The translations under genes were made by a program, and so were the position numbers. 64,000 nucleotides of DNA from an uncultured Elusimicrobia bacterium (GTDB lineage: Bacteria > Elusimicrobiota > Elusimicrobia > 2-01-FULL-59-12): assembly GCA_963702895.1 (NCBI GenBank), contig OY969767.1, positions 96,001-160,000 on the forward strand. Reading direction: 5' to 3'. The number at the start of each line of letters is the position of its first letter. Position 1 is the stretch's first letter. Shown here piece after piece: positions 11,865 to 61,817 of this stretch. Below the pieces are notes generated by a model, which was not told the origin of the DNA, searched no databases, and worked only from the letters and a program-made list of their open reading frames with translations.

Positions 11865-13802
11865 ATGTACGTCTACAGCAAAACCTATGACGTGATTGTT
11901 GTGGGGGCCGGCCACGCAGGATGCGAAGCGGCCCTGGCGGCTTCGCGGATGGGCCACGCGACGCTGCTTGTGACCATGAATCTGGACACGGTGGCGCAGA
12001 TGTCCTGCAACCCGTCCATTGGGGGACTGGCCAAAGGGCAAATCGTTCGAGAGCTTGACGCTCTGGGCGGCGAGATGGCGAAGAACACGGACCGCTCCGG
12101 TTTGCAGTTCCGGATGCTCAATTCCGCGCGCGGCCCGGCGGTGCAGTCGCCGCGCGCCCAGTGCGACAAGAAGCTCTACCAGTTCTCGATGAAGCACGTG
12201 CTGGAGCGCCAGCCGGGCCTCGACCTCAAGCAAGGGGAGACGGTCCGCGTCCTCACGGAGCACGGACGAGCGGTGGGGGTCGAGGTCAAGACGGGCACCG
12301 TCTATCATGGGAAAGCGGTCATTCTGACGACGGGCACGTTCCTGCGCGGGCTGATGCATGTGGGGCTGACCCAGCACCTGGGCGGCCGCGCCGGGGAACA
12401 TGCAGCGCAGCATCTGTCCGGGTCGCTCTTGGAACTCGGCTTTGAGATGGGACGTCTCAAGACCGGCACACCGCCTCGCTTGAACGCGCGAAGCATCGAC
12501 TTTTCTGTATGCGAGAAACAGCCGGGAGATGAGCCTCCCGTCCCTTTTTCCCATTTTACGGAGCGTCTCACGCAGGAGCAGCTCCCCTGCTGGATCACCC
12601 ACACCCGGGAGGAAACGCACCGCATCATCCGGGAGAACCTGGACCGCTCTCCGCTGTACTCGGGCGTGATCAAGTCCAAGGGCCCCCGCTATTGCCCGTC
12701 CATTGAGGACAAGGTTGTCAAATTCCCGGAGAAGACCCGGCACCACATCTTTCTTGAGCCTGAAGGCTACCACACGGAAGAGATCTATGTGAACGGAATC
12801 TCCACAAGCCTGCCGGAGGACGTGCAGATTCGTATTGTCCATTCGATCCCGGGCCTTGAGCGCGCCGAGTTGATGCGGCCGGGATATGCGGTCGAATATG
12901 ACTATTGTCCCCCCACACAGCTCAAGAGCACGCTGGAGACCAAGAAGGTCGAGTGCCTCTATTTCGCCGGGCAGATCAACGGAACGACGGGCTACGAGGA
13001 GGCCGCCGGGCAGGGTTTCCTGGCCGGCGTCAACGCGGTCCTTAAGGTTCGCGGCGAAGAACCGCTGGTCTTAAAGAGAGACGAAGCCTATCTTGGGGTT
13101 CTCATCGATGACCTGGTGACCAAAGGCGTGGATGAGCCCTACCGCATGTTCACGTCCCGCTCGGAATATCGCCTTCATCTGCGCACCGATAACGCGGACC
13201 TTCGGCTCATGGATTACGGTTATCGGCTGGGACTCCTTCAGGACGAGACCTACAGGGCCTTCTCGAATTACAAAGCTCTAGTGGAAAGAAACCTTCAGCA
13301 TTTGGAGCGTACCCGCAAAGCGGGGACCCAGGACACCCTGGCCAAACGGCTCCGACAGGGAGAGGCCCTGCCGATGAAGTGGATTGAAACTCCTTCTCCC
13401 GACCTTGTGTCGGGAGAAGGTCGGGATGAGGGCACGCCCAAGACTTTGCCCTCACCCGAGGCTACGCCTCGCCCTCTCCCGTCTCACGCCGGGAGAGGGG
13501 ATAGGCTCTACCCCTGGACACCGGAAAAGGTCCGTCAGCAAGTTGAAATACAGATCAAATATGACGGTTACCTGCGCCGCCAGCAGTCCGAGATCCAGCG
13601 GTTCGCCCGCATGGAACGTCGGCGCATCCCTCCTGAATTTGATTTCGACCGCGTCACCGGGCTTCTGACCGAAACACGGCAAAAGATGAATCACATTCGG
13701 CCTGCCTCGATTGGCCAGGCGAGCCGCATCCCGGGGGTGACCCCCTCCGACATCAGCCTGCTCCTCGTGCACCTCGAGCGCCAAAAAGAAGTGGCACGGT
13801 GA
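11865..13802 (+). CDS. mnmG: tRNA uridine-5-carboxymethylaminomethyl modification enzyme MnmG (GidA)
   Basis: [53 protein letters not shown]. Confidence 0.97.
13392..13500. repeat. Family A palindromic repeat (CCTTCTCCC..GGGAGAAGG..CCCTCACCC..CCCTCTCCC..GGGAGAGGG), in frame inside mnmG
   Basis: Near-identical to the reverse complement of 16497-16605. Confidence 0.88.
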
Positions 13803-16471
13803 TGAGCTTGTCTCGGTCCTCTTCATCCGACAAACTCGCCCCCCTGCGGCGTGATATCGATTTCCTGGCCCGCCTCCTGGGTGAAGCGATCCTCACGCAT
13901 GCCGGCGAGCCGGTCTACAAGGCGGTGGCGCATGTCCGCCGTGCCACGCTTGCCCTGCGCCGAAAATACAGTCCCGCCGCGGAGAAAAAGCTGCTGCATT
14001 ACATCCGCGCCCAAGATCTTTCGACCTCCACCCAGATCATTCGCGCCTTCGCGCTGTATTTCCAGCTGGTCAATCTCGCCGAAGAGGTCCATCGTGTCCG
14101 ACGCAAGCGCCATTATGAGAGCCTGCCCAACCACGCGCCCCAGAAAGGGTCGTTGGAGGAGGTGGTGCTCAAGCTTGGCGCTCGCGGCGTCACCCCTCCG
14201 GAAATCCAGAAAAGCCTTGAGCGCATGTCGATCGAAATCGTCCTCACCGCGCACCCCACGGAGGCCCAGCGCCAGACCATTTTGACCAAACTCCTGCGCA
14301 TCGCGGTCTTCATGATCGATCATGAGCGCGCGCGCGCCACGCCTCTGGAAGAGGAGGCCTTTGTCGCGCAGGTGCGCGGCGAAGTGGACGCGCTCTGGCA
14401 AACGGAAAGCATCCGCCGCCGGAAGGTCACCCCGCTCGACGAGGCGGAAAACGGTCTTTTTTATCTCGACCAGATGCTCTTTGAGCGCGTCCCCCGGACG
14501 CTGGAGAAGCTCGAATACCATTTGAATCAGGTCTATGGACGAAAGCTCCGCGTCGGAGACGTCCTGCATGTCGGCTCCTGGATGGGCGCGGACCGCGACG
14601 CCAATCCCTTCGTGACCCACTCGATCACGCGGAAAGTCGCGGAGATGTCCCGGCAGCTCGTTCTGCGCAAATATTTTTCGGCCGTGGATGAGCTGATTGG
14701 CCGCTGCAGCCTCTCCTCGGAGCTCGCGCCGCCCCTGCCGAGTCTGATGGCATCCCTCAAGCGGGACGTCGAGCGCTTGAGCAGACACGCGAAGACCCTC
14801 GAAGGGCGCTTTATGAATGAACCTTATCGCCAGAAGCTTTCCTTTATGAAGCACAAGTTGGGGATGATGATCGCGGGAGGCAAGGGGTACCCCAACGCCA
14901 GGTCCTTCCTCAGGGACGCCGAGCTGATCGAGGACGCCCTCCGTCACGCTCGTTCGGCCTTGGCGGGAGACGTGGCGTTTCTCTGCCGCCAGATCAGGAT
15001 CTTCGGATTTCATCTGGTTTCGCTTGACATCCGGGAGAATTCGCTGGCCATCCATGCCGCTTCCATCGCTAAACGATCGGGTACCCTGAGCGCCGATACC
15101 AAGGAAGTTCTTCAAACGATCCGCGCCATCAGGAAGATTCAGGACGAGGTTGACCCGAAAAGCCTCACGGCCTACGTGATCAGCTTGGCCCATGAGAAGG
15201 ATGATGTTCTGGAGCTCCTCGCTTTGCTTCAAAAAGAAGGCCTGGGCGGACGCGTGGACATCGTGCCGCTTTTTGAGAGCATCGCGGATTTGAGACATTC
15301 CGATGAGGTGATGTCCGAGCTCTACGAACATCCTGTCTACCGCCGGCATCTTAAAGAGCGCGGCAATGTCCAAGAAATTATGGTGGGCTATTCCGATTCC
15401 AACAAAGACGGCGGCTTCTTCACCTCGGGCTGGGAGCTCTATAAAGCGCAGCTGGAACTCACCGAGGCCGCCAAGCGCCACGGCGTTCGCCAGGTGCTCT
15501 TCCATGGTCGGGGCGGCGCGATCGGCCGCGGCGGTGGTCCGCTCAATCAGGCGATTCTGGCTCAGCCTCTCGAAACGGTGCAGGGCATGATCAAAATGAC
15601 CGAGCAGGGGGAGATGATCCATAACAAGTACGGCAACCCCTATCTCGCTGATCGAAACCTTGAGCTCATTCTTTCGGCCATGATCGAAAGTGATTTGCTG
15701 ACGGAGCCCTTGGCGCTGGAGGGAGCCTGGGTCAAAGCCGCGGAAGATCTTTCACAGCTTTCCTTTAAGGCTTACCGGGGCCTTGTGTACGATGATCCGG
15801 ATTTTGAGACCTTTTTTGACGAGTGCACACCCATCCGTGAGATCCAGGAACTGAATATCGGCTCGCGCCCCGCGCGCCGCGTGGCAGATTCCACGCGCAT
15901 CGAGGACCTGCGCGCCATTCCCTGGGTCTTTTCCTGGACCCAGTCCCGCTATACGCTGCCGGGTTGGTACGGGTTCGGCACCGCCCTGAAGTTCTGGCTG
16001 GAGGGCAGAGGAGTGAAGAATGAGAAGAAACACGGTTCCAGCCGCCCTTCCTCCCATGGCCATCGCCTCTCGGTCCTCCGGCAGATGTACCGGGACTGGC
16101 CTTTTTTCAAGTCCCAAGTCGATTTTATGGCCATGAGCGCGCAAAAGGCCGACATGCATATCGCCCGGCGCTACGCGGAGCTGGTGGAGGACAAGAGCAT
16201 GCGTGAGAGGATCTTCTCGCGCATCGAAGGGGAGCACCGGTGGCTGGTCGAGGGCATTCTCTCGATCACCGGAGAAAAGGCGACGCTGCAGTCCAATCCG
16301 ACGCTGCAGAGCTCGATCAAGCGGCGCAACCCTTACGTTGACGCGCTCAGCTATTTCCAGATCAGCCTTCTCCAGGCCTGGCGGGCTTCCGGTCGGACGC
16401 GGGATGATTTGAAGCATGCCGTTCTTTTATCCATCAATGGGGTCGCCAACGGCATGCGAAATACGGGATAA
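13799..16471 (+). CDS. ppc: Phosphoenolpyruvate carboxylase
   Basis: [34 protein letters not shown] and C-terminal GMRNTG. Confidence 0.96.
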
Positions 16472-16494
16472 TAGAACAGCCTATCCGAAAAACA

Positions 16495-16607
16495 CCCCCC
16501 TCTCCCGGCGTGAGACGGGAGAGGGCGAGGCGTAGCCTCGGGTGAGGGCAAAGGCTTGAGCGTGCCCTCATCCCGACCTTCTCCCATCCTGCGGACGGGA
16601 GAAGGGG
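16495..16607. repeat. Family A palindromic repeat, intergenic between ppc and purE
   Basis: Two terminal CTCCC/GGGAG hairpins and central GGGTGAGGGCA..TGCCCTCATCCC arms. Confidence 0.88.
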
Positions 16608-16650
16608 TTTCTGGAACCGCCTCTAAGGAAAGCAACAGAAAGGATCCGTT

Positions 16651-17133: not shown

Positions 17134-17146
17134 GCAGAAAGAATTC

Positions 17147-19808: not shown

Positions 19809-19814
19809 GATAGG

Positions 19815-21047
19815 TTACATAGAGCGCGATCGCCACGCTCGCTCGGAGGTCTTGGAATCCGGTTCCACACGAAAACGCACCGAACCAATCGTGCGGCCAT
19901 CTTCTGTTTCAATGAGCACCCGCCACCGCCCCGGTTCGTACCTCGATTTCGCGCCATAACCACGGTAACCTTCCCCCCGGCCCCCCACGATGGGAAGAGG
20001 GAAGCGGTCCGTCGTGATAAACGTGTTGTTCTCCCGATCCTCCTTCTCCCAGACCAAAAAGATCCGATGCGTGAACCGACGAGGCGCAAACACGCGCACA
20101 AAACAGAAAATGGCGTCCCCCGGTCGCGCGAGAAAGATGCGACTGTCGTGTTGCCAGAAGCGGTACCAAGGCGGCTTGGGCGAGGCGAGCTTGTAGCGGT
20201 CTCCTTCTCGGCTCACCTGATGATAGATCCCTCCATACTGCATGGACAATGGCACAGGAGGGATCCACTTCAACACATAGAGCGCGATCACAAGCAGCAA
20301 AAGCACAGCCGGAGGCCACCCTAAGGCGATAGCAGTGGCACGCTCGGAAACGACCGGGTCTTGTGTCGTCATCCCGGCGGAAGCCGGCCCTCCAAACTCC
20401 CGGCGGGCCGGGTCGCCGGCTGCTTGGAGACCCGGGATCCACGGTTCGCTTGTTTCTGGACCCCGGTTTTCACCGGGGTGACGTCTTATCTCGACAATTC
20501 GGGTCAACCGCGCCAGGTGCCGCACGAGATAATAGGAGCACAGCCCTGTGAGAAGGACCGCGAGCGCAAAGGTCCACCCACCCATCCGCCCTACGAGGAT
20601 GGGGATGAGGTAGTTGAGATAGGACACCAAGCAAAACGCGTGAAGCCCCAGGCGCATCTTGGAACCGGCGGCCTTCACCTGCGGCATTTCGTTCGCAAAC
20701 ATCAGGAGAAGCACGAGGAGCAGAAACACCATGGAACGCGGCCCGGTCGTGCTTTTGAAATAGAGGATCACATAAGCGCTCAGGAGTCCTCCGTAACAGA
20801 AGTGAATGGCTTCTGTTTCGAAGTGCCAGAGGCGTGCCACCCAGCCGGTCGGGCGCCATATCCCCAATTCATAGCGGAATTGGCGGACCAGGATGAGCGT
20901 GATCAGACCTAAGTAGGTGCTCTGGTAGATCAGATCAAGAAGGGAGTCAATTCGGACCAATGTGAAAACGTCAAAAAGGAACCCGCCCACAAAGAAGAGG
21001 ACGTTGCGATTTCGGGAGGCCCAGTCTTTGGCGATTCGATAATCCAC
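19815..21047 (-). CDS. DUF2914-like membrane protein carrying an in-frame repeat insertion
   Basis: N-terminal TM helices, IPPVPLS, GGRGEGYRGY, PGRWRV. Confidence 0.75.
   Translation of the reverse strand: MDYRIAKDWASRNRNVLFFVGGFLFDVFTLVRIDSLLDLIYQSTYLGLITLILVRQFRYELGIWRPTGWVARLWHFETEAIHFCYGGLLSAYVILYFKSTTGPRSMVFLLLVLLLMFANEMPQVKAAGSKMRLGLHAFCLVSYLNYLIPILVGRMGGWTFALAVLLTGLCSYYLVRHLARLTRIVEIRRHPGENRGPETSEPWIPGLQAAGDPARREFGGPASAGMTTQDPVVSERATAIALGWPPAVLLLLVIALYVLKWIPPVPLSMQYGGIYHQVSREGDRYKLASPKPPWYRFWQHDSRIFLARPGDAIFCFVRVFAPRRFTHRIFLVWEKEDRENNTFITTDRFPLPIVGGRGEGYRGYGAKSRYEPGRWRVLIETEDGRTIGSVRFRVEPDSKTSERAWRSRSM
20368..20482. repeat. Family B palindromic repeat (GTCATCCCGG..CCGGGATCCA..GACCCCGG..CCGGGGTGAC), in frame, with a nested insert
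   Basis: Same termini as copies at 38597, 48175, 52990, 54917, 56237 and 61201. Confidence 0.85.
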
Positions 21048-21086
21048 TCTGTGATATTCTACCTGTTAAACCAGTATGATAAAGGC

Positions 21087-21455: not shown

Positions 21456-21462
21456 ACCATCC

Positions 21463-21765: not shown

Positions 21766-21778
21766 AGTGAATAACAAA

Positions 21779-22008
21779 TGGTCAAAAGGGCTGATGGGGC
21801 TAGGTGAGCGACTCGGTGATTTCAGCCGGATCCCTGAGGACGCCTAGGCCGAACTGTTTGACGAAGTCCCCCATCCGCTAAAGATAGGGGGCCTGGGGGA
21901 CGAGGAGTTGTGAGGCCTGTCCGAAGGGAGACGGCGGTCCTCCGTAGCCATGGCGAAGGAGGAGAAATCACCGCGGAGCGAACGTAGCCCCATCAGCCCT
22001 TCTGACCA
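21779..22008 (+). repeat. Long rod-like inverted-repeat element R3
   Basis: Terminal arms 21779-21802/21985-22008 match 23/24; inner arm 21814-21823/21964-21973 is perfect. Confidence 0.8.
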
Positions 22009-24801: not shown

Positions 24802-24961
24802 CCCTCTCCCACGTTCCGTGGGAGACCCGCGCTTCCACAATTTCTTATAGCGCGCAGGTCCCGAGTCGTGTTCGGGAGGGCTGGGGTGAGGGCAAGTCAG
24901 AATCAGCGAGAGGGGTCTGTGCCCTCGCCCTGACTCTCTCCCGCCTAAGAGCGGGAGAGGG
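24802..24961. repeat. Family A palindromic repeat (composite) between convergent genes
   Basis: CCCTCTCCC..GGGAGA, GGGGTGAGGGCA..TGCCCTCGCCC, CTCTCTCCC..GGGAGAGGG. Confidence 0.75.
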
Positions 24962-24977
24962 AAGAATAGAACGCCGT

Positions 24978-34155: not shown

Positions 34156-35415
<1,260 letters not shown>

Positions 35416-35522
35416 AAGACCCCTATTGACAACACAGTTGCTCTCCCACCTGGCGGCGGGAGAGGGGACTAAAAAGTGCAGCCGGCTTAGACGGACAGAG
35501 CCGCTTTGCTGAAGATTCCGGG

Positions 35523-37139: not shown

Positions 37140-37340
37140 AGCAGAAGTGTTGTGATGCGTTGAATATGGCAGCTGTTATTGGATGGACGCCTTCGTCCTC
37201 CCCATCTGAGGCGATGGGGGCCCAGCTCCAAGCGCATATCACGCTTGCCGGCACTTCGGTGTGCGCGCGTTCAAGTTATGTCAAATCGTCCTAAAGGATG
37301 TCAAATGGCGGCTTGGAATTTTGAACTTATCCGCAAACCT

Positions 37341-37486
37341 CCTTCTCCCGTCCGTAGGATGGGAGAAGGCTGGGATGAGGGTACGTGATCCAAGAAAGAT
37401 CGCCCCTCACCCCCCGCCTCGCCAGAAGTCCGGCGAGTCGCCGGCAGTCTTGGCGACCTCTCCCATGCTTCGCACGGGAGAGGGGG
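37341..37486. repeat. Family A palindromic repeat downstream of hypE, with nested insert
   Basis: CCTTCTCCC..GGGAGAAGG..GATGAGGG..CCCTCACCC..CCTCTCCC..GGGAGAGG. Confidence 0.8.
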
Positions 37487-38547: not shown

Positions 38548-38596
38548 GACTAACTCCTCACGTGTGCTACTAGGGACTGTGTATGTACTACTTGTC

Positions 38597-38679
38597 GTCA
38601 CCCCGGCGGATTGTTAGCCGGGGTCTATCATCGACGTGAAAGAAATGATGGATCCCGGCTAACGACATGCCGGGATGAC
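38597..38679. repeat. Family B palindromic repeat between hypD and hypE
   Basis: GTCACCCCGGC..GCCGGGGTC..GATCCCGGC..GCCGGGATGAC. Confidence 0.85.
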
Positions 38680-38697
38680 GTCGACAATAGACTAACT

Positions 38698-47850: not shown

Positions 47851-48217
47851 GTTCGGAATGGTCGACGACTTCATTCACCATCTCGTGGACGAGTGGAAAG
47901 ACAAAGAGCCGAACGCAGCGGCTGTCTTTCGGATTCTCTACGGGCCCGGCCTCCAAGAGGACGCGCTGCGCCAGGCTTTCGAGGTTCATACGGCGGGAAC
48001 GCCTTTGGAACGCGCGCGTTTTGAGTTTGTGCCGAAACCCGTCACGCTGTCCTGTGCTTGCGGAACCGTGATACGGCCGGTTCTGGGAGAGGCGGAAATC
48101 CCTTATACTGTGTGTTCAAGCTGCGATGCGGTTGTGCCTGTTCCCGGATTTAACGTCATCGAGCTTCTGATGCCGTCATCCCGGCATGATGTAAGCCGGG
48201 ATCCATCATTTACGTAG
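47843..48217 (+). CDS. hypA: Nickel metallochaperone HypA-like; C-terminus runs into a family B repeat
   Basis: MHE start; CAC...CSSC. Confidence 0.75.
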   Translation: MHEFGMVDDFIHHLVDEWKDKEPNAAAVFRILYGPGLQEDALRQAFEVHTAGTPLERARFEFVPKPVTLSCACGTVIRPVLGEAEIPYTVCSSCDAVVPVPGFNVIELLMPSSRHDVSRDPSFT

Positions 48218-48291
48218 AAACACGATAGACCCCGGTTTTCACCGGGGTGACGTCAACGGAAGATTCCCGGCTAACGATCCGCCGGGGTGAC
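48175..48291. repeat. Family B palindromic repeat (three hairpin units)
   Basis: GTCATCCCGGC..GCCGGGATCC..GACCCCGGTTTTCACCGGGGTGAC..CCCGGC..GCCGGGGTGAC. Confidence 0.85.
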
Positions 48292-48335
48292 GTCTTTACT
48301 TTATCTTCTAAAAGAATCGACATAGAGGTGTCTGG

Positions 48336-51300
48336 ATGAACAAGCGTTTTGTCATGTTGGACGGCAGTCAGGCGGTGGCGGAAGTCGCTTACCGTCTCAA
48401 TGAGGTCATCGCCATTTATCCCATTACCCCTTCCTCCAACATGGCGGAATGGGCCGACGCTTGGATGTCGGAAGGGCGCACGAACCTCTGGGGAGCCGTT
48501 CCTCAGGTCTACGAGATGCAAAGCGAAGCCGGCGTGGCCGGCGCCGTGCATGGGGCGCTCCAGACCGGGGCCCTCGCCACCACCTTTACCGCCTCCCAGG
48601 GTCTGTTGCTCATGATCCCCAACATGTACAAGATCGCTGGCGAGCTCACGCCAGCCGTCTTTCATGTGGCCGCAAGGTCCTTGGCCACTCAGGGGCTCTC
48701 CATCTTTGGCGATCACTCCGATGTGATGGCGGCTCGGCAGACGGGGTGGGGCATGCTCGCCTCAGCCTCCGTTCAAGAAACCATGGACTTTGCGCTCCTC
48801 AGCCAGGCGATCTCTTTGCGAAGTCGCATTCCCTTCATCCATTTCTTCGATGGATTCCGGACCTCGCATGAAGTTTCCAAAGTGATAGGGCTGGAAGATG
48901 ACGTCATCAAAGCCTTGATCGACGAAAAAGCGATTCAAAACCACCGCGCCCGCGCGCTCTCGCCCGATCATCCCTTCATTCGAGGGACCGCCCAGAACCC
49001 CGACGTCTATTTTCAGGCGCGTGAAACGGTGAACCCTTTTTATGTCGAGTGTCCGAAGATCGCCGAAAGCCTCTTTTCGGAGTTCTCTCGTCTGACCGGC
49101 CGGACTTATGGTCTCTACGAGTATCATGGTGCCCCAGACGCCGAGCGTGTGGTCATTCTGATGGGGTCGGGTTGTGAGACCGCGCAAGAAACCGCTGAAG
49201 CCCTGCGCCAAAAAGGGGAAAAAGTGGGTCTCATCAAAGTTCGGCTTTATCGTCCTTTGGATGCGGCGCGCTTGGTCGCGGCACTTCCGGCCAGCGTGAA
49301 ATCCATTGCGGTCCTCGACAGGACCAAAGAACCCGGAGGGGCCGGCGAGCCGCTGTACCAGGATGTGATCACGGCCATTCATGAAGTCATGGCCGCAGGG
49401 AAAGCGCCGTTCCAGAAGCTTCCGAGGATTGTGGGCGGGCGCTACGGCCTGTCGTCCAAAGAATTCACGCCCGCCATGGTCAAGGCCGTTTTCGATAACC
49501 TGAGCGCGCCGCAACCCAAGAATCACTTCACGGTGGGCATTCAGGATGATGTGTCCCACACGAGCCTTGCCTTCGACAAAGCATGGTCCATTGAGCCCAA
49601 CGATGTCATCCGGGCTCTCTTTTACGGTCTGGGGTCGGACGGCACGGTGAGCGCGAACAAGAACTCCATCAAGATCATTGGCGAAAACACGGACGGATAC
49701 GCCCAAGGTTATTTTGTTTACGACTCCAAGAAATCGGGGTCTATGACCATCTCCCACTTGCGGTTTGGACCACGTCCGATCCGGTCGCCCTACCTCATCA
49801 CGGAAGCGAACTTCATTGGTGTGCACCAGCCGATGTTTTTGGACCGCTTTGACCTCCTTCAATCCATGGCGCCCGGCGGCACCTTGCTCCTCAATAGCGC
49901 GATCGGCGCGGATAACATCTGGGACACTTTGCCGCGGTCCTACCAGGAGCAGGTCCTCAAGAAGAACATCCGGATTTTTGTGATCGATGCCTATAAGGTT
50001 GCCGATGAGGTGGGCATGGGGGGCTTGATCAACACCATCATGCAGGTTTGTTTCTTTGCCATTTCAGGCGTGCTTCCCCGCGAGAAGGCCATTGAGGCCA
50101 TCAAAGATTCCATTCAAAAGACCTACGGCAAAAAGGGGGAAGATATCGTCGCGATGAACCTCAAGGCCATCGATCGCACCCTCGAACGTCTCTTTGAGGT
50201 CAAACACCCCGGCAAACTGACCAGTTCCAAGCAGCTCCGGCCCCCGGTGGTGAGCGGCGCACCTGTCTTTGTGAACGATGTCCTCGGGCGCATGATCCAG
50301 AACCAGGGAGACGAGCTGCCCGTGAGCGCCCTTCCCAACGACGGGACCTATCCTTCGGCTACGGCACAATGGGAAAAGCGGCGGCTGGCACAGGAAATCC
50401 CTGTGTGGGACATTAATGTCTGTATTCAGTGCAGCAAGTGCGTCATGATTTGCCCGCATGGCGTCATCCGGGCCAAGGTGGTGGAGCCTGAGCTTCTCGC
50501 CCAAGCGCCCGCTTCCTTCAAATCGCGCAACGCGATCGACCGTGACTGGGCAGGCAAGAAGTATGTCCTCCAGGTTTCTCCGGACGACTGTACCGGTTGT
50601 ACCCTCTGCGTGGAAATCTGTCCGGCGCGCAATAAATCCGAAACGCGCCTCAAAGCCCTGAACATGGCGCCGATCGATCCTTTGCTGCAGCAGGAAATCG
50701 ACCATTGGAATTTCTTCCTGAATCTTCCGGATATGGACCGGCGTAAGATCAATGTGAACAAGACCAATCAGCAGCAGATCCAGCGGCCGCTCTTTGAGTT
50801 TTCGGGCGCTTGTTCGGGCTGCGGTGAGACCCCTTATCTGAAACTCCTCTCCCAGCTTTTCGGTGACCGATCCTTAATTGCCAACGCCACCGGATGCTCT
50901 TCGATTTACGGAGGTAATCTTCCCACCACCCCCTGGGCGAAGGACGCGTTGGGACGGGGGCCGGCGTGGAGCAATTCGCTTTTTGAAGATAACGCGGAGT
51001 TTGGTTTGGGTCTGCGCCTCTCGATCGACCAACAAAACGCGATGGCACGAGGGCTCCTCAAGACCCTCTCCGGTTCCCTGGGAGACGACTTGGTCGGGGC
51101 CCTCCTGGCTGCTCAGCAGCACGACGAGGCTGGCCTCTATGAACAGCGTGAGCGCGTGAAGGTCCTCGTCGAGAAGCTCAAAGCCATTCATCAGCCGGAA
51201 GCCCGGACGCTGGAAAGCCTCGCGGGCTATTTGGTCCGCAAGAGCGTCTGGATCGTAGGAGGCGACGGTTGGGCTTTTGACATCGGGTTTGGCGGCCTCG

Positions 51301-52913: not shown

Positions 52914-52989
52914 CGCCTCAGGTCCTTTCCGAATCGGCGAACCGGGGAACCGGCGAGCCGGCGACTGACAGATGCGGCGACATTCTTTG

Positions 52990-53118
52990 GTCATCCCCCG
53001 CAGCCGTAAGCGGGGGATCCATCATTTTTCTATTGCTTGATGGACCCCGTCCGCCACACGGCAGGGCGGACGGCCCGCCAGGTGTGTGGAGGGCCGGCTT
53101 ACAGCTTGCCGGGGTGAC
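52990..53118. repeat. Family B palindromic repeat with nested hairpins
   Basis: GTCATCCCCCGC..GCGGGGGATCCA..TGGACCCCG[insert]GCCGGGGTGAC. Confidence 0.75.
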
Positions 53119-53305
53119 GTCAATGCAAGCTCCGCATCCCCGCGTCCCCGTGTCTCCGCGTCAGCCTCTCGCCCCCTCCTGTCCCTAGGGTCTGGCCCAA
53201 GGAACGTCCCCTAGCCGTAACCTCCGCCACTGGCGTGCAGCCTTTCCGACGATGTCGTGAATATTTTCCCGCGCTTTGCATCTAAGGGAGTGAAGGGAGA
53301 ATGAT

Positions 53306-53776: not shown

Positions 53777-53788
53777 AAGGGGGAAGGT

Positions 53789-53962: not shown

Positions 53963-53966
53963 GATC

Positions 53967-54899: not shown

Positions 54900-55434
54900 C
54901 CGAAATTCAAAAAGTCGTCATCCCGGCGCGTCGTTAGCCGGGATCCATCATGATAGACCCCGGCTAACAATCCGCCGGGGTGACGGCCATGAGACTTGCG
55001 GAAGAGACACTCGGTTATCTTCGGGGCAGGCACTGGTCGAGGTCGCCCTCGTCTTGCCCTGCGTCTGCCTGGGGATCTTTATGGCACTGCAGCTTATCCT
55101 TTACTGCCACAACATGATCGAACTCCAGAGAATGGCCCAGGTCATGTCAGACCGACAAAGCTATAGCGCGACAAAGTCTGTGCGGGACTACTCGAGGTTC
55201 CACGCGCTTTGGGGAAAGGTGGGATTGGGAAAGCTGAGAGTCGAACATTGGCAGCCCCGTCCCTGGAGGCCGTTCCGGGGGATCTCCACCGTCCAGCATC
55301 CCGGCCTGTTTTACCGTGTTCAGGTAGGAGCGACGCTTTTCCCCGGCCATGGTTTCAGCCGGGTCTTGGGATGGGCCAGCAAGACAGGATACGCCGAGGG
55401 CTATCTTGAGCCTCCCCTGCCCCAAGAGAGCTGA
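54892..55434 (+). CDS. TadE-like pseudopilin (start uncertain; family B repeat in N-terminal region)
   Basis: GQALVEVALVLP followed by a hydrophobic helix. Confidence 0.75.
   Translation: MVNRNSKSRHPGASLAGIHHDRPRLTIRRGDGHETCGRDTRLSSGQALVEVALVLPCVCLGIFMALQLILYCHNMIELQRMAQVMSDRQSYSATKSVRDYSRFHALWGKVGLGKLRVEHWQPRPWRPFRGISTVQHPGLFYRVQVGATLFPGHGFSRVLGWASKTGYAEGYLEPPLPQES
54917..54984. repeat. Family B palindromic repeat
   Basis: Nearly the reverse complement of 38597-38679. Confidence 0.85.
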
Positions 55435-55436
55435 CC

Positions 55437-56174: not shown

Positions 56175-56236
56175 TGAACCGGGAGTCTTCTGTCGGGCCG
56201 GTTTTGTCGTCTGTGGTCAGTGTTCTAGTTTGTGCC

Positions 56237-56300
56237 GTCATCCCGGCGGACGCCGGGATCCATCATTTTTGTCGAACAATGATAGACCCCGGCTTTCGCC
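56237..56300. repeat. Left part of a family B repeat interrupted by IS110 element 2 (right part 57549-57556)
   Basis: GACCCCGGCTTTCGCC + GGGGTGAC restores the hairpin. Confidence 0.88.
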
Positions 56301-56309
56301 TATTAGACT

Positions 56310-56490
56310 TTTCTCGAGTCTTTGTAGACTCTAGAAGAAGACACCGACAAGAATGGAATAAGTCTAACTTTCGCCAAGGTGAAAACCATACCCCGGTAAA
56401 GACCCCATTCTTTCGTGATCCAAAGCTAGATAGAAGTGATGTCATAAAAACCCTTAATAGGCAAAGCTCGCATCACGAATGTCGGCACTT
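56310..56490 (+). ncRNA. Predicted bridge RNA of IS110 element 2 (ends approximate)
   Basis: 5' hairpin GAGTCT/AGACTC; target loop with CTTTCGCC and ACCCCGG; donor loop with ATAGAAGT and TAATAGG. Confidence 0.85.
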
Positions 56491-56505
56491 ACAAAAAGGA
56501 GCCTT

Positions 56506-57531
56506 ATGAACCCACCTCTCCATTACATAGGCGTTGATATCGCCGATCAAACCTTCAGCGCAACACATTACAGCTCAGCCGAACAAAAGTATTCCAAACA
56601 TCAGACGCTCGCCAATACACCCGCCGGCTTTGAGGAATTCGAAGCCTGGTTTAAGAAACGCGGAGTCGATTCCACCAATACCGTGGTCTGCATGGAAGCC
56701 ACCGGTGTTTATGCGGAGCAGCTCTGCTACTGGCTCTGTGCCAAAGGCTATCCGGTGTCGGTGGAGGCGCCGCATAAAACCAAACGCGCCTTTCACCCCC
56801 TGGGAGCCAAAAGCGACCCCATCGATAGCCGCCAGCTCGCCGAATATGCCTGGCGCTTTTTCGATCAACTCGCGTTCTGGAAACCCTCGGAAGCCTTGAT
56901 CGAACAAGTCCGTGTTCTTCTGACGACGCGCGAGCAGCTGACCGGCCAGATGACCGCCAATCAAAATGCCTTGTCGGCCATCAGCCGGAAAGTCGTTCGC
57001 ACGATCCTCGCCGAACAAAGCTTCCTGGACACCATCCGCCATCTCAAAGAACAGATCAAAAAAATCGATCAGGCCTTGGATCAACTGATCTCAAACCACC
57101 CCACCATTGGCCCCATGGTGAGCTTGCTGCTCACCATCCCTGGGGTGGGCCGACTCTTGACGGCCCATTTGATGGTCATCAGCCAAGGCTTTACGCGATC
57201 CCTGGAACCCCGCCGCATCGCCTCGTATTTGGGCATGTGCCCACTCGAACACTCCAGCGGAACTTCCGTGCGCAAGAATGCAAGCTCTCGCGGGATCGGT
57301 CCGGACATCATCCGCAAGCTATTGCACCTGGCAGCCCGATCCCTTCGCACACATCATCAGCAGTTCAGGCACTACTTTGAAAGAAAAGTACAAGCCGGAA
57401 AAGCCAAACGCTTGGCGCTCAACAACATTGCCAACAAACTCTTGCGCATTATCTGTGCCGTACTGCGCACAAAGTCACCGTATCTTGCTGACTATAGGTC
57501 AGTCAATCCTCGGATCCTAAAAAATGCTTGA
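56506..57531 (+). CDS. IS110 family DEDD recombinase/transposase
   Basis: IGVDIA, MEATGVY, AKSDPIDS, TIPGVG, EHSSG; AAGGAG RBS. Confidence 0.95.
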   Translation: MNPPLHYIGVDIADQTFSATHYSSAEQKYSKHQTLANTPAGFEEFEAWFKKRGVDSTNTVVCMEATGVYAEQLCYWLCAKGYPVSVEAPHKTKRAFHPLGAKSDPIDSRQLAEYAWRFFDQLAFWKPSEALIEQVRVLLTTREQLTGQMTANQNALSAISRKVVRTILAEQSFLDTIRHLKEQIKKIDQALDQLISNHPTIGPMVSLLLTIPGVGRLLTAHLMVISQGFTRSLEPRRIASYLGMCPLEHSSGTSVRKNASSRGIGPDIIRKLLHLAARSLRTHHQQFRHYFERKVQAGKAKRLALNNIANKLLRIICAVLRTKSPYLADYRSVNPRILKNA

Positions 57532-57574
57532 CCGAGGTCATAGAAATCGGGGTGACGTCAATAGAAGATTTCGG

Positions 57575-58018
57575 ATGAATGCTCGCGGGCAGGCGCTTAT
57601 CGAAGCCGCGGCCTTGTTCCTGGCGCTGTCGGTCCTCTTGGGCGGGCTTGCCGGCTTCACTCAGTGGTTTGCCATCAGGCAAAAGCTGCTCCTGGCGGCC
57701 AAAGAGGGAGCCCTGCTCTACAGCTCCGGACATTGGCGGAGAACGGAAGTGGAAGCGCGCATGCGTAATTTTTTGGTCACGGGCGCCCCTGCCTTGAACC
57801 CGCGGGGGATCACCGTTTCGCTGCGCCCCTTGTCCGGTTTCATGGCCTGGCTCGGGCAATTTGACGAGTGCGTCGTGACCTACGCTCCTCCTGGGGGCTG
57901 GCACGCCCTGCTTGGCGCCGGCCGCTCCGTGTCCGAACGTTTTGTGGTGAAGCACGCGCCTCCCTATTGGTCCTCCCACGCGTCACGGGCAGGCCCGGCG
58001 GTCCGCTATGGCGAATAA
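57575..58018 (+). CDS. TadE-like pseudopilin
   Basis: MNARGQALIEAA, AAKEGA. Confidence 0.8.
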   Translation: MNARGQALIEAAALFLALSVLLGGLAGFTQWFAIRQKLLLAAKEGALLYSSGHWRRTEVEARMRNFLVTGAPALNPRGITVSLRPLSGFMAWLGQFDECVVTYAPPGGWHALLGAGRSVSERFVVKHAPPYWSSHASRAGPAVRYGE

Positions 58019-58772: not shown

Positions 58773-60535
58773 TACCGATATGGTCAGACCTCCCGGACCA
58801 GGAGCGACGAAACTTCGCTCAGGCGCTCGCGGGTGTTTTCCATGAAGAGCATCAGGACGTTCTGCTCGTGGACTGTGGGCATCCCGAACCACATCCCGAT
58901 CCGGCGGAGTGGGCACCTAAGTTCAAGGCCCTTGCGCCGGCACTCCTGCGCAACTATCTGGAAGCCGGGGACCACAAGGGAGGCTGCTTAAAGCTGTCAC
59001 ACCTTCCGGGGAAAGTTCAAGGCCTTGAACTTTTTGAGCTTCTGGCGCGCGCCTACGACTGGGTGTTGGTCTTGGCGCCTGCGGGTGCGGCCTCCCAGGC
59101 GGGCCCGCTTTTTGAGGCTGCCAGCTTTGTGGTCTGGCTCGGACAGGCCGGTCCTGACCTCGCCTCGCGCTATGAAGCGTTTCTGGGCCGTCTATCGCCC
59201 TCGCATTTCCCCCATGCGTACGTTCTTCCCGTGGAAGGGCCTGACCGGAGCATAGGCTCTCATCCAAATGAAGCGTGCCTTAAGGAGTTGGCCCGAAGAC
59301 TGGAAGATCAGCCTGGTGTCGCCAGGCCCAAAGGGGATTCGCCCTTGACCGGCGCGCCCTCGCCGGACCAGGCTGTGGATCAACTCAAAGCGCGAGCGCA
59401 GCCGGAGCTCATGAAGACCCTCGAGGATACAACAACCCTGGAAGCTGACACGGCACGGAAGACCATCGAGCTCTGCCTTGCCAGGGACGCCTCCCTGCCG
59501 GCTTCGCCCGCTCAAAGGGGGATGATCCTCGAACTCGTCATGCAGGACGTCCTGGGTCTTGGGCCGCTCGATCCCTTGCTCAAGGACCCGGAGGTTTCCG
59601 AGGTGATGGTGAATGGCCCGGAGCGCGTCTACGTTGAAAAGAAAGGGAGGCTTGTGCCGACCGATGCCCGCTTCTCATCGGACAAGCAGCTGCGCACGGT
59701 GATTGACCGGATTGTGGCTCCCATCGGGCGCCGCGTGGATGAGAGCATGCCGCTCTGCGACGCGCGGCTCGCGGACGGCTCCCGGGTGAACATCGTTCTT
59801 CCGCCGCTCTCACTCGACGGGCCGACCTTGACCATCCGGAAGTTCTCGGCGCGCGCGCTGGGCCTCGCGGAGCTCGAGCGCCTGGGATCGCTGAGCCCCG
59901 CGATGGCCGATTTCCTTTTGCGCGCGGTGCGCGCGCGCCGCAACATCGTGGTCTCGGGCGGAACCGGCAGCGGAAAGACCACGCTCCTGAATGCCCTCTC
60001 GGGTGCCATCCCGGACGAGGAGCGGATCGTCACCATCGAAGACGCCGCCGAGCTCAAGCTCCAGAAGCCCCATGTGGTGCGTCTGGAGAGCCGGCCTCCC
60101 AACGCCGAAGGGGAAGGCGCGATTCCCATCCGGCGCCTTGTGATCAACGCCCTGCGCATGCGGCCGGACCGGATTGTCGTGGGGGAATGCCGCGGCGGGG
60201 AGGCGCTCGATATGCTGCAGGCCATGAACACGGGGCACGACGGCTCCATGACCACCCTGCACGCCAATTCGCCCCGGGACGCTCTGGGGCGGCTCGAGAC
60301 CCTCGTGCTCATGGCCGGGCTTGACTTGCCGGTCCGGGTCGTGCGCGAACAGATCCGGAGTGCCATCCACCTCCTTGTCCAGCAGGCCAGGCTTGCGGAT
60401 GGCTCACGGAAGGTCACCTCGATCACGGAAGTTACGGGCATGGAAGGGGAGGTGCTCACCACCCAGGAGCTCTACGGCTTCAAGTCGGGCTGCTTTGAGG
60501 CGACGGGCGTCGTCTCCGGAATGGTGCCGTCATGA
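58754..60535 (+). CDS. cpaF: Tad pilus ATPase CpaF/TadA with N-terminal extension
   Basis: GGTGSGKTT, TIED, LRMRPDR, AMNTGHDG. Confidence 0.93.
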   Translation: MARGKIIPIWSDLPDQERRNFAQALAGVFHEEHQDVLLVDCGHPEPHPDPAEWAPKFKALAPALLRNYLEAGDHKGGCLKLSHLPGKVQGLELFELLARAYDWVLVLAPAGAASQAGPLFEAASFVVWLGQAGPDLASRYEAFLGRLSPSHFPHAYVLPVEGPDRSIGSHPNEACLKELARRLEDQPGVARPKGDSPLTGAPSPDQAVDQLKARAQPELMKTLEDTTTLEADTARKTIELCLARDASLPASPAQRGMILELVMQDVLGLGPLDPLLKDPEVSEVMVNGPERVYVEKKGRLVPTDARFSSDKQLRTVIDRIVAPIGRRVDESMPLCDARLADGSRVNIVLPPLSLDGPTLTIRKFSARALGLAELERLGSLSPAMADFLLRAVRARRNIVVSGGTGSGKTTLLNALSGAIPDEERIVTIEDAAELKLQKPHVVRLESRPPNAEGEGAIPIRRLVINALRMRPDRIVVGECRGGEALDMLQAMNTGHDGSMTTLHANSPRDALGRLETLVLMAGLDLPVRVVREQIRSAIHLLVQQARLADGSRKVTSITEVTGMEGEVLTTQELYGFKSGCFEATGVVSGMVPS

Positions 60536-61155
60536 TCATTTTGGCCGCGCTCGGAATGATCAGTCTCCTGATTCCATCCCTATTGAAGAAGATGCGGACA
60601 GAACAGCGGCGGCTCCTCCTGGCGAGCCAGCTCCACCAGGCGCTGGAGAACATGGTCCACGCGCTGCGCACAGGCCTCGGGCTCCAGCAGGCGCTCGAAG
60701 CCGCGGCGAGGGAGGGCGACCAGCCGCTTGCCGGCGAGTGGCAATCTCTGCTGAAGTCCGTCCGGCTGGGCGCGCCCTGGCCGGAAGCGCTGGATCAACT
60801 GGGCAAGCGGGTCGATCTTGCGGAGATGAAGTGGTTTGTGACCGCCGTTGGGATCACGCGCCAGACCGGAGGGCCGCTCACCCAGGTCCTTGAGACTTTG
60901 GCGGACACCCTGGAGGAGCGGCTCGTGCTGCGAGAGAAGATCAAGGCCCTGACCGCTCAAGGGAAAGCGTCCGGGGCCGTGCTCGCCGCGCTACCCTTCC
61001 TGATTCTGGGCGCCTTGCGGCTGCTTGTGCCGGAGCTCGTCCGCCCGATGTTCATGACCGCTACGGGACAGCTTCTGGTCGCCGGCGTCATCGTGTCGGT
61101 GGCGGTGGGGGGGCTGATCATGTGGAAAATCGTTCACATCCGGGTAGAGTCATGA
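60532..61155 (+). CDS. tadB: TadB (T2SS F family)
   Basis: T2SSF-like, QTGG, ALTAQG; follows cpaF. Confidence 0.88.
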   Translation: MIILAALGMISLLIPSLLKKMRTEQRRLLLASQLHQALENMVHALRTGLGLQQALEAAAREGDQPLAGEWQSLLKSVRLGAPWPEALDQLGKRVDLAEMKWFVTAVGITRQTGGPLTQVLETLADTLEERLVLREKIKALTAQGKASGAVLAALPFLILGALRLLVPELVRPMFMTATGQLLVAGVIVSVAVGGLIMWKIVHIRVES

Positions 61156-61817
61156 AGCATTTGTGGGATCTAGCGCTAATCCGAATCGCTCAATTGAGAC
61201 GTCACCCCGGTGAAAACCGGGGTCCAGAAGCCGACAGATCATGGATCCCGGCTTTCGCCGGGATGACGGAACGAAAAAATCCCGAAATTTCAGTCGACAA
61301 GCCACGTTTAGCTACACTTTTTCGGCTGTGCGTGTGCCGGAAATGGAGAGAGAAGAAAAGAAACGAGGATATCCTCGTGATGCTTCCGGAGGCGCTCGAC
61401 CTCATGACTGTGGTGATCCAGGCGGGGCTCGACTTCCAGGTGGCCCTGGCGAGGTATCTCGAGTTCTCAGCGGGAGGCGCACTGCGCGAGGAATTCGCGA
61501 AGGTCCAGCGGGCGCTCCAAACGGGCTCCTCACGCGCTGACGCCCTGCGGGCCCTGGCGGCCGGCGCCTCGTGCCCGGAGTTGCGGCAAACCGCCAAAGC
61601 CGTGCTCCAGGCCATGGAGTTGGGGTCCGGCCTCACGCCCATCCTTCGGGCACAGTCGCGGCTTCTTCGAAAGAAGCGGGCCCTGGCGGCCGAAAAGACG
61701 GCGGCCCTGGCGCCGCTCAAGCTCCTGTTCCCCTTGTTTGTCTTTATCTTCCCGACGATCTTTGTGGTGCTCTTCGGGCCCGTCGTGCTTGCCGTGATGA
61801 AGGGAAGCACGGGATGA
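61152..61817 (+). CDS. tadC: TadC (T2SS F family) with family B repeat in frame at the N-terminus
   Basis: LPEALDLM, AGL, KLLFPL..IFP. Confidence 0.82.
   Translation: MKHLWDLALIRIAQLRRHPGENRGPEADRSWIPAFAGMTERKNPEISVDKPRLATLFRLCVCRKWREKKRNEDILVMLPEALDLMTVVIQAGLDFQVALARYLEFSAGGALREEFAKVQRALQTGSSRADALRALAAGASCPELRQTAKAVLQAMELGSGLTPILRAQSRLLRKKRALAAEKTAALAPLKLLFPLFVFIFPTIFVVLFGPVVLAVMKGSTG
61201..61267. repeat. Family B palindromic repeat in frame in tadC
   Basis: GTCACCCCGGTGAAAACCGGGGTCCA..TGGATCCCGGCTTTCGCCGGGATGAC. Confidence 0.88.

What the first reader, a model, noticed from the sequence alone, without database searches (positions are those of the whole stretch)
13392..61267. Two orthogonal RNA-guided recombinases divide the genome's two palindromic repeat families
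Seen: family A (5 loci) and family B (7 loci) are unrelated in sequence, and each has one copy occupied by its own IS110 with matching guides. Neither insertion breaks a gene, even inside the Tad operon. Empty near-cognate sites remain: CTTTCGCC|GGGAT in tadC (61252-64) and TTTTCACC|GGGGT at ~20467 and ~48236. Inference: repeats act as safe-harbour landing pads for a mutually orthogonal pair, useful for multiplexed editing. Copies lying inside genes would be lethal or selected-against targets.
Basis: partly seen in the sequence, partly recalled or inferred. Interest (0 to 1): 0.8.

Follow-up and report, generated by a model that had tools for sequence, protein, structure and literature searches.

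The report
Repeat-targeting RNA-guided jumping genes (IS110)
Two small jumping genes of the known IS110 kind each carry a guide RNA that steers them into a fixed spot in one of the genome's two main palindromic repeat families; this is a clean new example of a known behaviour, and the repeats are not entirely safe landing pads because some copies lie inside genes.

Summary
The window has 5 family-A and 7 family-B repeat loci. One locus of each family is split by its own IS110-family element: IS_A body 34281-35440, IS_B body 56301-57547. Genome-wide, 3 of 3 IS_A and 5 of 5 IS_B copies sit at the same point of their own family.

Both transposases align with IS621 and keep the DEDD and serine residues. 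Both have a long 5' non-coding end that folds into stem-loops whose loops match the flanks and the element's own ends. In five metagenomic relatives of IS_A these loops change together with the flanks.

- A third IS110/IS1111 lineage (5 copies) targets the end of a MITE that itself carries family-B hairpins.
- 37 perfect IS_B sites are empty.
- The "tadC" site is intergenic, whereas the ~20467 site lies in frame inside a conserved gene.
- Family-B hairpins are translated inside dnaE, mnmE and other genes, and two of these carry perfect IS_B sites.
- Orthogonality is untested.

REP-targeting IS110 elements are well known (IS621, ISPpu9/10), so this is a new member of a known kind.

The parts
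34281..35440 (+). IS_A, an IS110-group insertion sequence (body 1160 bp), flanked by the core dinucleotide CT at 34279-34280 and 35441-35442
   Evidence: Three genomic copies are 99.8-100% identical. Junctions come from copies compared with empty sites and coordinates from reading.
34462..35415 (+). IS_A transposase (317 aa)
   Evidence: Pfam PF01548 and PF02371. phmmer to ISCro4 9t56 (E 4e-42) and IS621 8wt6 (E 9e-42), with the D, E, D..D and S motifs aligned.
34281..34461 (+). IS_A left end, the candidate bridge RNA. Target loop: LTG 34315-34323 (contiguous match ACCCT at 34319-34323), RTG GGAGAG 34348-34353, then CA 34354-34355. Donor loop: LDG ACAGTTGC 34389-34396, RDG ATGCAAG 34426-34432.
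   Evidence: Fold with z -3.1. Guide matches. Covariation with flanks in five relatives. Consensus fold with 12 of 23 pairs showing compensatory change.
34195..34280 (.). Left part of the family-A repeat split by IS_A (hairpins 1 and 2); the right part (hairpin 3) is 35441-35468
   Evidence: An intact counterpart lies at genome 689827.
56301..57547 (+). IS_B, an IS110-group insertion sequence (body 1247 bp). The left junction reads CC (56299-56300); the right junction reads T57547-C57548.
   Evidence: Five genomic copies are 99.9-100% identical with identical 12-nt and 10-nt flanks.
56506..57531 (+). IS_B transposase (341 aa)
   Evidence: Pfam PF01548 and PF02371. phmmer to IS621 8wt6 (E 3.5e-28), with the catalytic motifs aligned.
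56301..56505 (+). IS_B left end, the candidate bridge RNA: a 5' hairpin, then a target loop (LTG CTTTCGCC 56368-56375, RTG ACCCCGG 56390-56396) and a donor loop (LDG CATAAAAACC 56443-56452, RDG TAATAGG 56455-56461)
   Evidence: Fold with z -3.95 and 0 of 200 shuffles as stable. Anchored guide test 0 of 5000.
56229..56300 (.). Left part of the family-B doublet split by IS_B; the right part is 57548-57570
20361..20502 (.). Family-B doublet translated in frame inside the DUF2914 gene (19815-21047, minus strand). It holds the 2-mismatch IS_B sites 20467-20479 (+) and 20371-20383 (-).
   Evidence: Orthologues lack the insert.
48174..48297 (.). Family-B locus with an empty 2-mismatch IS_B site at 48236-48248
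61181..61275 (.). Family-B doublet in the tadB-tadC spacer, with a 1-mismatch site at 61252-61264 (+) and a 2-mismatch site at 61204-61216 (-)
13386..13500 (.). Family-A copy (empty); an inverted partner lies at 16497-16611
   Evidence: (I1: 115 nt, 91% complementary).
24802..24963 (.). Family-A locus (empty)
37336..37440 (.). Family-A copy (empty, partial)
38592..38693 (.). Family-B doublet (empty). Further family-B loci lie at 53071-53132 and 54911-54987.

Best explanation
IS_A and IS_B are two unrelated members of the IS110 group of the IS110 family, the group in which the bridge RNA is encoded in a long left end upstream of the transposase gene.

Proposed mechanism, by analogy with IS621. 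Each element excises as a circle. The junction of its right and left ends would then carry the donor site and probably a promoter. For IS_A, TTGACA at 35426-35431 and CAAAAT at 34288-34293 would lie 18 nt apart in a circle. The left-end RNA has two internal loops. The first pairs with both strands of a short target around a core. The second pairs with the joined ends of the element itself. The DEDD/serine recombinase then swaps strands at the core.

Targets.
- IS_A is aimed at ...ACC-CT-CTCC, between the second and third hairpins of family A.
- IS_B is aimed at CTTTCG-CC-GGGGT, which is the loop and 3' arm of the family-B hairpin.

The targets are repeats that lie mostly between genes, so most insertions are harmless and the elements can persist. 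A third, IS1111-type relative does the same at a MITE end.

Shown here: the element boundaries, the copy numbers, the empty sites, the conservation of the catalytic residues, the guide-flank matches, and guide-flank covariation in the IS_A lineage.

Inferred, not shown: expression of the RNA, circle formation, the strand-exchange chemistry, and lack of cross-talk between the systems.
For: Family membership. Pfam finds both family domains. Both proteins align end to end with IS621 and ISCro4, with the D, E, D..D and S motifs conserved. The residue identities D11, E60, D102, D105 and S241 come from passages of PMC11208158.

Element architecture. The left ends are long and the right ends short: 181 against 25 nt for IS_A and 205 against 16 nt for IS_B (read). 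This is the IS110-group pattern described in PMC11208160 (passages).

RNA folds. Each left end folds into stem-loops with internal loops.

IS_B guides. An 8-nt stretch identical to the left target plus core, and a 7-nt stretch complementary to core plus right target, lie 14 nt apart on opposite sides of one loop. No shuffle of 5000 reached this. In the second loop, TAATAGG is complementary to CC plus the first five bases of the element.

IS_A guides. GGAGAG plus CA is complementary to the right junction. ACAGTTGC equals the right end plus the first core base (5 of 1000 shuffles reach it).

Covariation. Five metagenomic relatives (42-51% identical transposases) keep the CT core and the end sequences but sit in different flanks. 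The match of each element's own right-target guide to its own right flank is 6, 8, 7, 8, 7 and 7 nt, against at most 6 for any foreign pair. For the left-target guide the figures are 5, 6, 7, 8, 5 and 4, against at most 5. The donor guide follows the right end in L030, where TT has become CC in both.

Genome census. All 8 copies are at the family-specific point. Empty sites exist: 37 perfect for IS_B and 4 for IS_A under the gapped model. The near-identity of copies points to recent activity.
Against: IS_A left-target guide. It fits its three real sites poorly: only 5 contiguous nt, and 3-4 mismatches in the 7 nt before the core. Thirty-five other CTCTCC sites fit better, with 2 mismatches, and are empty. 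The fit is rescued only by a model made after the fact, with a 1-2 nt bulge (CCT-N0-2-ACC). That model picks out 7 sites genome-wide, 3 of them occupied.

IS_B junctions. The two junction dinucleotides differ in all 5 copies, CC on the left and TC on the right, so only one base is shared. A simple 2-nt core duplication would not give this. The donor guide matches the real right end at only 8 of 10 positions.

IS_B relatives. None could be found to test covariation: 1 distant hit in genome contigs and 0 of 300 other genomes of the phylum at E<=1e-30.

A contrary contig. A sediment-metagenome contig (X2) carries an IS_B-like left end with a 5-base block change exactly over the distal part of the left-target guide (56367-56371). 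At most one change can lie in the 12 aligned flank bases.

Promoters. No sigma-70-like promoter is found inside either integrated copy.
Confidence: 0.88

Rival explanations
1. Target choice is set mainly by the DNA hairpin structure of the repeats, or by the protein, and RNA pairing plays only a minor part.
For: Only 5 contiguous bases of the IS_A left-target guide fit its sites, and better-matching sites outside the sub-family are empty. All three IS_A sites share flanking hairpins. The X2 variant has a changed guide but the same flank. A preprint on ISPpu10 reports that a target-encoded stem-loop adds specificity (10.64898/2026.03.19.712850; abstract and section 7 read).
Against: In six IS_A-lineage elements the right-target guides follow entirely different flanks. 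The IS_B guides match 15 nt around the core. IS621 is experimentally reprogrammable through the RNA alone (PMC11208160, passages).
Confidence: 0.2
2. The flanking repeat halves belong to the elements (terminal sequences carried along) and are not pre-existing targets.
For: All copies of an element have identical bases next to their ends.
Against: Intact, uninterrupted repeats with the two halves adjacent are common: 37 perfect for IS_B, and genome 689827 for IS_A. Beyond 10-20 nt the flanks differ between copies and belong to different repeat sub-types.
Confidence: 0.02
3. The systems are not orthogonal: one recombinase can use another's RNA or ends, so the partition reflects only the guide sequences.
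For: Nothing here tests this. All three lineages share the same fold family.
Against: The proteins are 25% identical. I saw no shared scaffold motif between the IS_A-clade RNA (AGATCG...GATC, CCCGAACAG...CAAGG..GGG) and the IS_B left end. The cores also differ.
Confidence: 0.25

Closest known systems
IS621 of E. coli (IS110 group; bridge RNA; Durrant et al. 2024, PMC11208160; Hiraizumi et al. 2024, PMC11208158)
   Same: DEDD plus serine recombinase. A left-end RNA with a target loop and a donor loop. [quoted passage not shown] Natural targets are REP elements. IS_A also has the CT core and two bases after its right-target guide that can pair with the donor, in the manner of a handshake guide.
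   Different: The transposases are distant (E 1e-28 to 1e-42). The targets are different repeats in another phylum. IS_B has a CC/TC junction instead of CT at both ends. The IS_A left-target guide fits its sites only with a bulge.
ISPpu9 and ISPpu10 of Pseudomonas putida KT2440 (Tobes and Pareja 2006, PMC1525189; section 4 read)
   Same: Two dissimilar IS110-family elements live in one genome, and every copy of each is inside a REP at a fixed point with a 2-bp repeat.
   Different: In P. putida both elements use the same position of the same REP. Here each element has its own repeat family or its own position.
IS1111-group elements with a 3' seekRNA (Siddiquee et al. 2024, PMC11187229; only the search listing and the start of the abstract seen)
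   Same: The third lineage in this genome, outside the window, has subterminal inverted repeats (GAAAGCGGGC / GCCCGCTTTC) and a fixed site at a MITE end.
   Different: IS_A and IS_B have the long non-coding end on the 5' side and no long subterminal repeats.
Rickettsia palindromic elements inserted in frame in genes (recalled; not looked up)
   Same: Family-B hairpins are read through in frame inside housekeeping genes.
   Different: The sequence family and the phylum differ. Here the same hairpins are also landing pads for an IS110 element.

Membership tests
IS110 family, IS110 group (bridge-RNA recombinase elements) | [quoted passage not shown] | tested here: met
   IS_A scores 69.6 and 63.2 bits. 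IS_B scores 78.6 and 61.9 bits. All are above the curated cut-offs.
IS110 family, IS110 group (bridge-RNA recombinase elements) | Catalytic D, E, D, D and serine conserved (D11, E60, D102, D105 and S241 in IS621) | tested here: met
   In the phmmer alignments to 8wt6 and 9t56, the motifs GxD, EATG, DxxD and (E/D/S)SG line up in both proteins. Residue numbers are from PMC11208158.
IS110 family, IS110 group (bridge-RNA recombinase elements) | Long left non-coding end and short right end | tested here: met
   IS_A has 181 against 25 nt and IS_B has 205 against 16 nt. The criterion is from PMC11208160.
IS110 family, IS110 group (bridge-RNA recombinase elements) | The same short core present in the target and at both junctions | tested here: inconclusive
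   IS_A has CT at both junctions and in the empty sites, so the feature is met. IS_B has CC on the left and TC on the right in 5 of 5 copies, so only one base is shared.
IS110 family, IS110 group (bridge-RNA recombinase elements) | Left-end RNA with two internal loops whose sides match the target and the donor around the core | tested here: met
   IS_B has 8 + 7 nt for the target and 7 nt plus 8 of 10 for the donor. IS_A has 5 + 6 nt for the target and 8 + 7 nt (one G-T pair) for the donor, with covariation in 5 relatives.
IS110 family, IS110 group (bridge-RNA recombinase elements) | The RNA is made, binds the recombinase and directs recombination | not testable with these tools
   No run listed as RNA holds the stretch.
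REP/REPIN elements with a RAYT transposase | Short palindromic units, often in inverted doublets, in many copies | tested here: met
   Family B has 258 hairpins in 174 loci by a strict pattern. Family A has 108 hairpin hits in 49 loci.
REP/REPIN elements with a RAYT transposase | Mostly between genes | tested here: met
   Nine of 174 family-B loci are classed as genic by a codon rule, against 935 of 2000 random spots. The rule misses some cases that Pfam proves.
REP/REPIN elements with a RAYT transposase | A single-copy Y1 (RAYT) transposase gene in the genome | tested here: inconclusive
   The only PF01797 match has 23.3 bits and lies in an 89-aa open frame. Part of family B instead lies inside a 141-nt MITE with terminal inverted repeats. 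I therefore call the families REP-like and do not file them as REP/RAYT systems.

The most novel reading that the evidence does not exclude
This 2.7-Mb genome holds a natural set of three mutually non-cross-reacting RNA-guided recombinases whose landing pads are nested in one repeat network; IS_B and the third lineage share the same 141-nt MITE. The same pads are also translated inside essential genes with perfect IS_B sites, so some gate beyond base pairing may keep the element out of those copies, for example hairpin extrusion or the transcription state of the DNA. In addition, IS_A would use a bulged, discontiguous left-target pairing, and IS_B a crossover in which donor and target share only one core base.
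Probability: 0.2. Interest if true: 0.6.

Novelty: new member of a known kind. Interest (0 to 1): 0.3.

Why it matters
The finding adds two sequence-distant IS110-group elements from an uncultured lineage, with boundaries, guides, targets and empty sites all readable from one closed genome. The phylum was given as Elusimicrobiota by earlier notes of this scan; I did not check it.

These elements could serve as further candidates for bridge-recombinase engineering. They also offer a natural case for asking how several such systems coexist in one genome.

The principle itself has been in print for years: IS110 elements are steered by their own RNA into REP-type repeats. A genome-wide census of targets by coding status has already been done for ISPpu10. 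The most useful new points are the corrections:
- the landing pads are not uniformly safe;
- a third system shares one of them;
- for IS_A, guide-target fit alone does not explain which sites are used.

Tried and rejected
- Rfam. Searches at E<=1 over both elements gave no relevant family. The one hit, mir-H20 at 24.7 bits against a 99-bit cut-off, is one of the repeat's own hairpins.
- Empty alleles in relatives. A DNA search of 20 relatives for an empty Tad-cluster site found them too distant for synteny at the DNA level.
- Relatives of the IS_B transposase. Genome contigs gave one 30%-identical hit. None of 300 other genomes of the phylum matched at E<=1e-30. IS_B covariation therefore could not be tested.
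- Unanchored longest-match tests were mostly not significant, because long probes allow many placements. I replaced them with core-anchored paired tests. The anchored donor-loop test fails for IS_A because its donor guide mismatches the second core base.
- Sequencing runs. No RNA holder was listed.
- A contig joint in run X1 from 56297 to 57548 looked like an empty site. It has 6 mismatches, only 23 nt on one side and 2 extra letters, so it is another repeat copy, not an excision product.
- Promoter scans inside the integrated copies found none. I could not scan a circle junction because I did not build joined sequences.
- RAYT search. Only a borderline hit.
- One search failed because my coordinates spanned two frames. 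I corrected them.

Full report
**What is in the window.** The window is bases 96001-160000 of a closed 2,724,539-bp genome with 57% G+C. The repeat search and inspection of the copies confirm two unrelated palindromic families. Family A is a composite of three hairpins: CTCCTTCTCCCG...CGGGAGAAGG, GGGTGAGGGCA...TGCCCTCACCC and CCCTCTCCCG...CGGGAGAGGG. It has 5 loci in the window. Family B is a CCCGG-type hairpin, usually in inverted doublets, with 7 loci. Pfam finds exactly two IS110-type transposases in the window, one inside a family-A locus and one inside a family-B locus.

**Boundaries and copies.** blastn against the genome gives 3 copies of IS_A (99.8-100% identical) and 5 of IS_B (99.9-100%). 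I compared their flanks with uninterrupted repeats.
- IS_A sits at ...CACC-CT-CTCCC, with CT on both sides: left CT at 34279-34280, body 34281-35440, right CT at 35441-35442.
- IS_B sits at CTTTCG-CC-GGGGT: CC at 56299-56300, body 56301-57547, then C at 57548 and GGGGT.

All 3 and all 5 copies are at the same point of their own family, in different repeat sub-types and different surroundings, so they are separate insertions. In IS_B the junction dinucleotides are CC on the left and TC on the right in 5 of 5 copies. I cannot explain this with a simple duplicated 2-nt core.

**Family membership.** Both proteins align over nearly their whole length with the solved IS621 and ISCro4 transposases: IS_B at E 3.5e-28, IS_A at E 4e-42 and 9e-42. 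The aspartate, glutamate, two aspartates and the serine line up; passages of PMC11208158 name these as D11, E60, D102, D105 and S241. Both elements have a long left and a short right non-coding end (181 against 25 nt, and 205 against 16 nt). This is the IS110-group arrangement described in PMC11208160 (passages).

**The guide RNAs.**

IS_B. The left end folds well (z -3.95) into a 5' hairpin and two stem-loops with internal loops.
- First loop: the 5' side holds CTTTCGCC, identical to the left target plus CC. The 3' side holds ACCCCGG, complementary to CC plus GGGGT. This core-anchored pair was reached by 0 of 5000 dinucleotide shuffles.
- Second loop: TAATAGG is complementary to CC plus the first five bases of the element. 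CATAAAAACC matches the right end at 8 of 10 positions.

IS_A. The fold has z -3.1.
- First loop...CCTACCCT on the 5' side, of which only ACCCT fits the real left flanks. GGAGAG on the 3' side fits CT plus CTCC, and the next two bases, CA, can pair with the last bases of the right end. That is the place of the handshake guide in IS621. The anchored pair was reached by 51 of 5000 shuffles.
- Second loop: ACAGTTGC equals the right end plus the first core base (5 of 1000 shuffles). ATGCAAG pairs with CT plus TGTAT through one G-T pair.

Rfam has no model that hits either element.

**Independent support from relatives.** A metagenome scan with the IS_A transposase returned 5 loci with 42-51% identical proteins. 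All keep the CT core, a left end that starts TGTATG or TGTGTC, and a right end of the form AC(A/G)G(T/C)(T/C)(G/T). Their flanks, however, are unrelated. I scored each left end against each element's flanks.
- Right-target guide: own match 6, 8, 7, 8, 7 and 7 nt; foreign matches at most 6.
- Left-target guide: own match 5, 6, 7, 8, 5 and 4 nt; foreign matches at most 5.
- Donor guide: in L030 it reads ACAGCCGC where the right end reads ACAGCCG.

A consensus fold of the six RNAs has 23 pairs, and 12 of them show a compensatory change in at least one sequence. The MAFFT alignment in the variable loops is rough.

For IS_B no such test was possible. I found one distant hit in genome contigs and no match in 300 other genomes of the phylum at E<=1e-30.

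IS_B. The 13-mer CTTTCGCCGGGGT occurs 37 times uninterrupted (36 in repeat context), against 5 occupied sites. A further 58 sites have one mismatch (46 in repeat context) and 160 have two (36 in repeat context). These counts exclude the 5 guide copies inside the elements. The window holds no perfect empty site.

IS_A. No site in the genome has fewer than 2 mismatches to the 7 nt predicted by the left-target guide followed by CTCTCC. The occupied sites have 3-4 mismatches, and 35 sites with 2 mismatches are empty. A model made after the fact, with a 1-2 nt bulge (CCT-N0-2-ACC-CT-CTCC), picks out only 7 sites, all in family A: 3 occupied and 4 empty. Either the pairing is discontiguous or the flanking hairpins matter. 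The second possibility is what a preprint proposes for ISPpu10 (10.64898/2026.03.19.712850; abstract and section 7 read).

**Genic or intergenic.** By a codon-usage rule trained on 955 long ORFs, none of the 8 IS copies has coding-like sequence on both flanks. The repeats themselves are not always between genes.
- Open frames run through family-B hairpins in mnmE, dnaE, a VitK2_biosynth gene, a radical-SAM gene, a FAD_binding_2 gene, polX and an MFS-acyltransferase-AMP-binding gene. Pfam domains lie on both sides of the insert, or are stretched by it.
- Two of the 37 perfect IS_B sites are in such genes: mnmE and the FAD_binding_2 gene.
- In the window, the doublet at 20361-20502 encodes residues 183-233 of the DUF2914 protein (19815-21047, minus strand). 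In 7 of the relatives searched the two halves of that protein lie next to each other in one open frame of 360-400 aa (an eighth shows them as partial matches).
TadC orthologues in 12 relatives start aligning no earlier than residue 72 of the long ORF; the six best of those listed begin at 72-88, five of them (72-73) in open frames of 174-190 aa. The tadB stop is at 61155.
- By a strict pattern, 9 of 174 family-B loci are classed as genic, against 935 of 2000 random spots. The family is therefore strongly, but not completely, excluded from genes.

**More than two systems.** A search of the genome with PF02371 gives 13 matches: 3 IS_A, 5 IS_B and 5 of a third lineage. Within the third lineage, three copies are nearly identical and two are 81-83% identical to them. 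This lineage has subterminal inverted repeats and sits near the right end of a 141-nt MITE. The MITE has terminal repeats TAACCGGAAAT...ATTCCCGGTTA and itself contains a family-B doublet with a perfect IS_B site. Two IS_B copies sit in MITEs of this type. At least one further minor inverted-repeat family exists, with 8 loci.

**Public reads.** No RNA holder was listed. Contigs of a freshwater-sediment run (X1) carry IS_B pieces without differences. An apparent joint across the element is another repeat copy, not an empty allele. A sediment contig (X2) has an IS_B-like left end in which 5 of 7 differences fall in one block at 56367-56371, the distal half of the proposed left-target guide, while the 12 aligned flank bases can hold at most one change. 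Change concentrated in a guide is what a programmable loop would show. The unchanged flank is not what it would show. With one short, low-depth contig I leave this unexplained.

**Comparison with what is known.** IS621 inserts into E. coli REPs, and its RNA-guided mechanism is established (PMC11208160, passages read). Tobes and Pareja (PMC1525189; abstract and Results read) showed in 2006 that all copies of two dissimilar IS110-family elements of P. putida lie in REPs, both at the same position. A census of ISPpu10 targets by coding status exists, with 97.1% outside coding regions. The present case differs in two ways: each element has its own repeat family or position, and some landing pads are translated. 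It is a new member of a known kind. My literature basis is the two searches. I did not search for in-frame palindromic elements in print, and the comparison with Rickettsia palindromic elements is from recall.

**Verdict.** Interest is modest at 0.3. The mechanism and the habit of targeting repeats are textbook since 2024 and 2006. The window's value lies in a clean natural example and in the corrections listed above.

Noticed in passing
window 20361-20502 (in gene 19815-21047, minus strand). Outside the window, in genome coordinates: 82798-84387, 218205-221918, 974652-975797, 1434730-1436205, 1680081-1681856, 1902773-1904770 and 2310453-2313962.: Family-B hairpin doublets are read through in frame inside conserved genes: DUF2914, mnmE, dnaE, VitK2_biosynth, radical SAM, FAD_binding_2, polX and an MFS-acyltransferase-AMP-binding fusion. 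They add roughly 40-50 residues. Pfam domains flank the insert or are stretched by it, and for DUF2914 the orthologues lack the insert.
   Followed up: partly
genome 671409-672770, 2232107-2233468, 2427394-2428755, about 416563-417923 and about 646010-647229 (outside the window): A third IS110-family lineage of IS1111 type, with subterminal inverted repeats, in 5 copies. It is inserted near the right end of a 141-nt MITE that contains a family-B doublet with a perfect IS_B site.
   Followed up: partly
window 56299-56300 and 57547-57548, and the other four IS_B copies: The left junction reads CC and the right junction reads TC in 5 of 5 copies, so donor and target share only one base at the crossover. 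Both donor guides in the RNA imply CC.
   Followed up: partly
window 56367-56371, as seen in a contig of coded run X2: An IS_B-like left end in a sediment metagenome has a 5-base block substitution exactly over the distal part of the proposed left-target guide, with an essentially unchanged flank.
   Followed up: no
window 35426-35431 and 34288-34293: TTGACA near the right end of IS_A and CAAAAT near its left end would lie 18 nt apart in a circular form. This would be a sigma-70-like promoter that exists only after excision. No promoter-like site is found in the integrated copy.
   Followed up: no
window 57577-58018: The Tad-cluster ORF downstream of IS_B probably starts at the ATG at 57577, only about 28 nt after the element. 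The insertion may therefore affect expression of the downstream pilus genes even though no gene is broken.
   Followed up: no
window 10385-10621 and 21779-22008: Two pairs of 45-48-nt inverted repeats lie about 140 nt apart. The first type has 8 loci in the genome, which makes it a further minor repeat family.
   Followed up: no
window 51063-51071: The minimal 9-mer ACCCTCTCC that fits the contiguous IS_A guides also occurs inside the pyruvate:ferredoxin oxidoreductase gene. It is one of 52 such 9-mers genome-wide, about half of them outside repeats and none of those occupied.
   Followed up: partly
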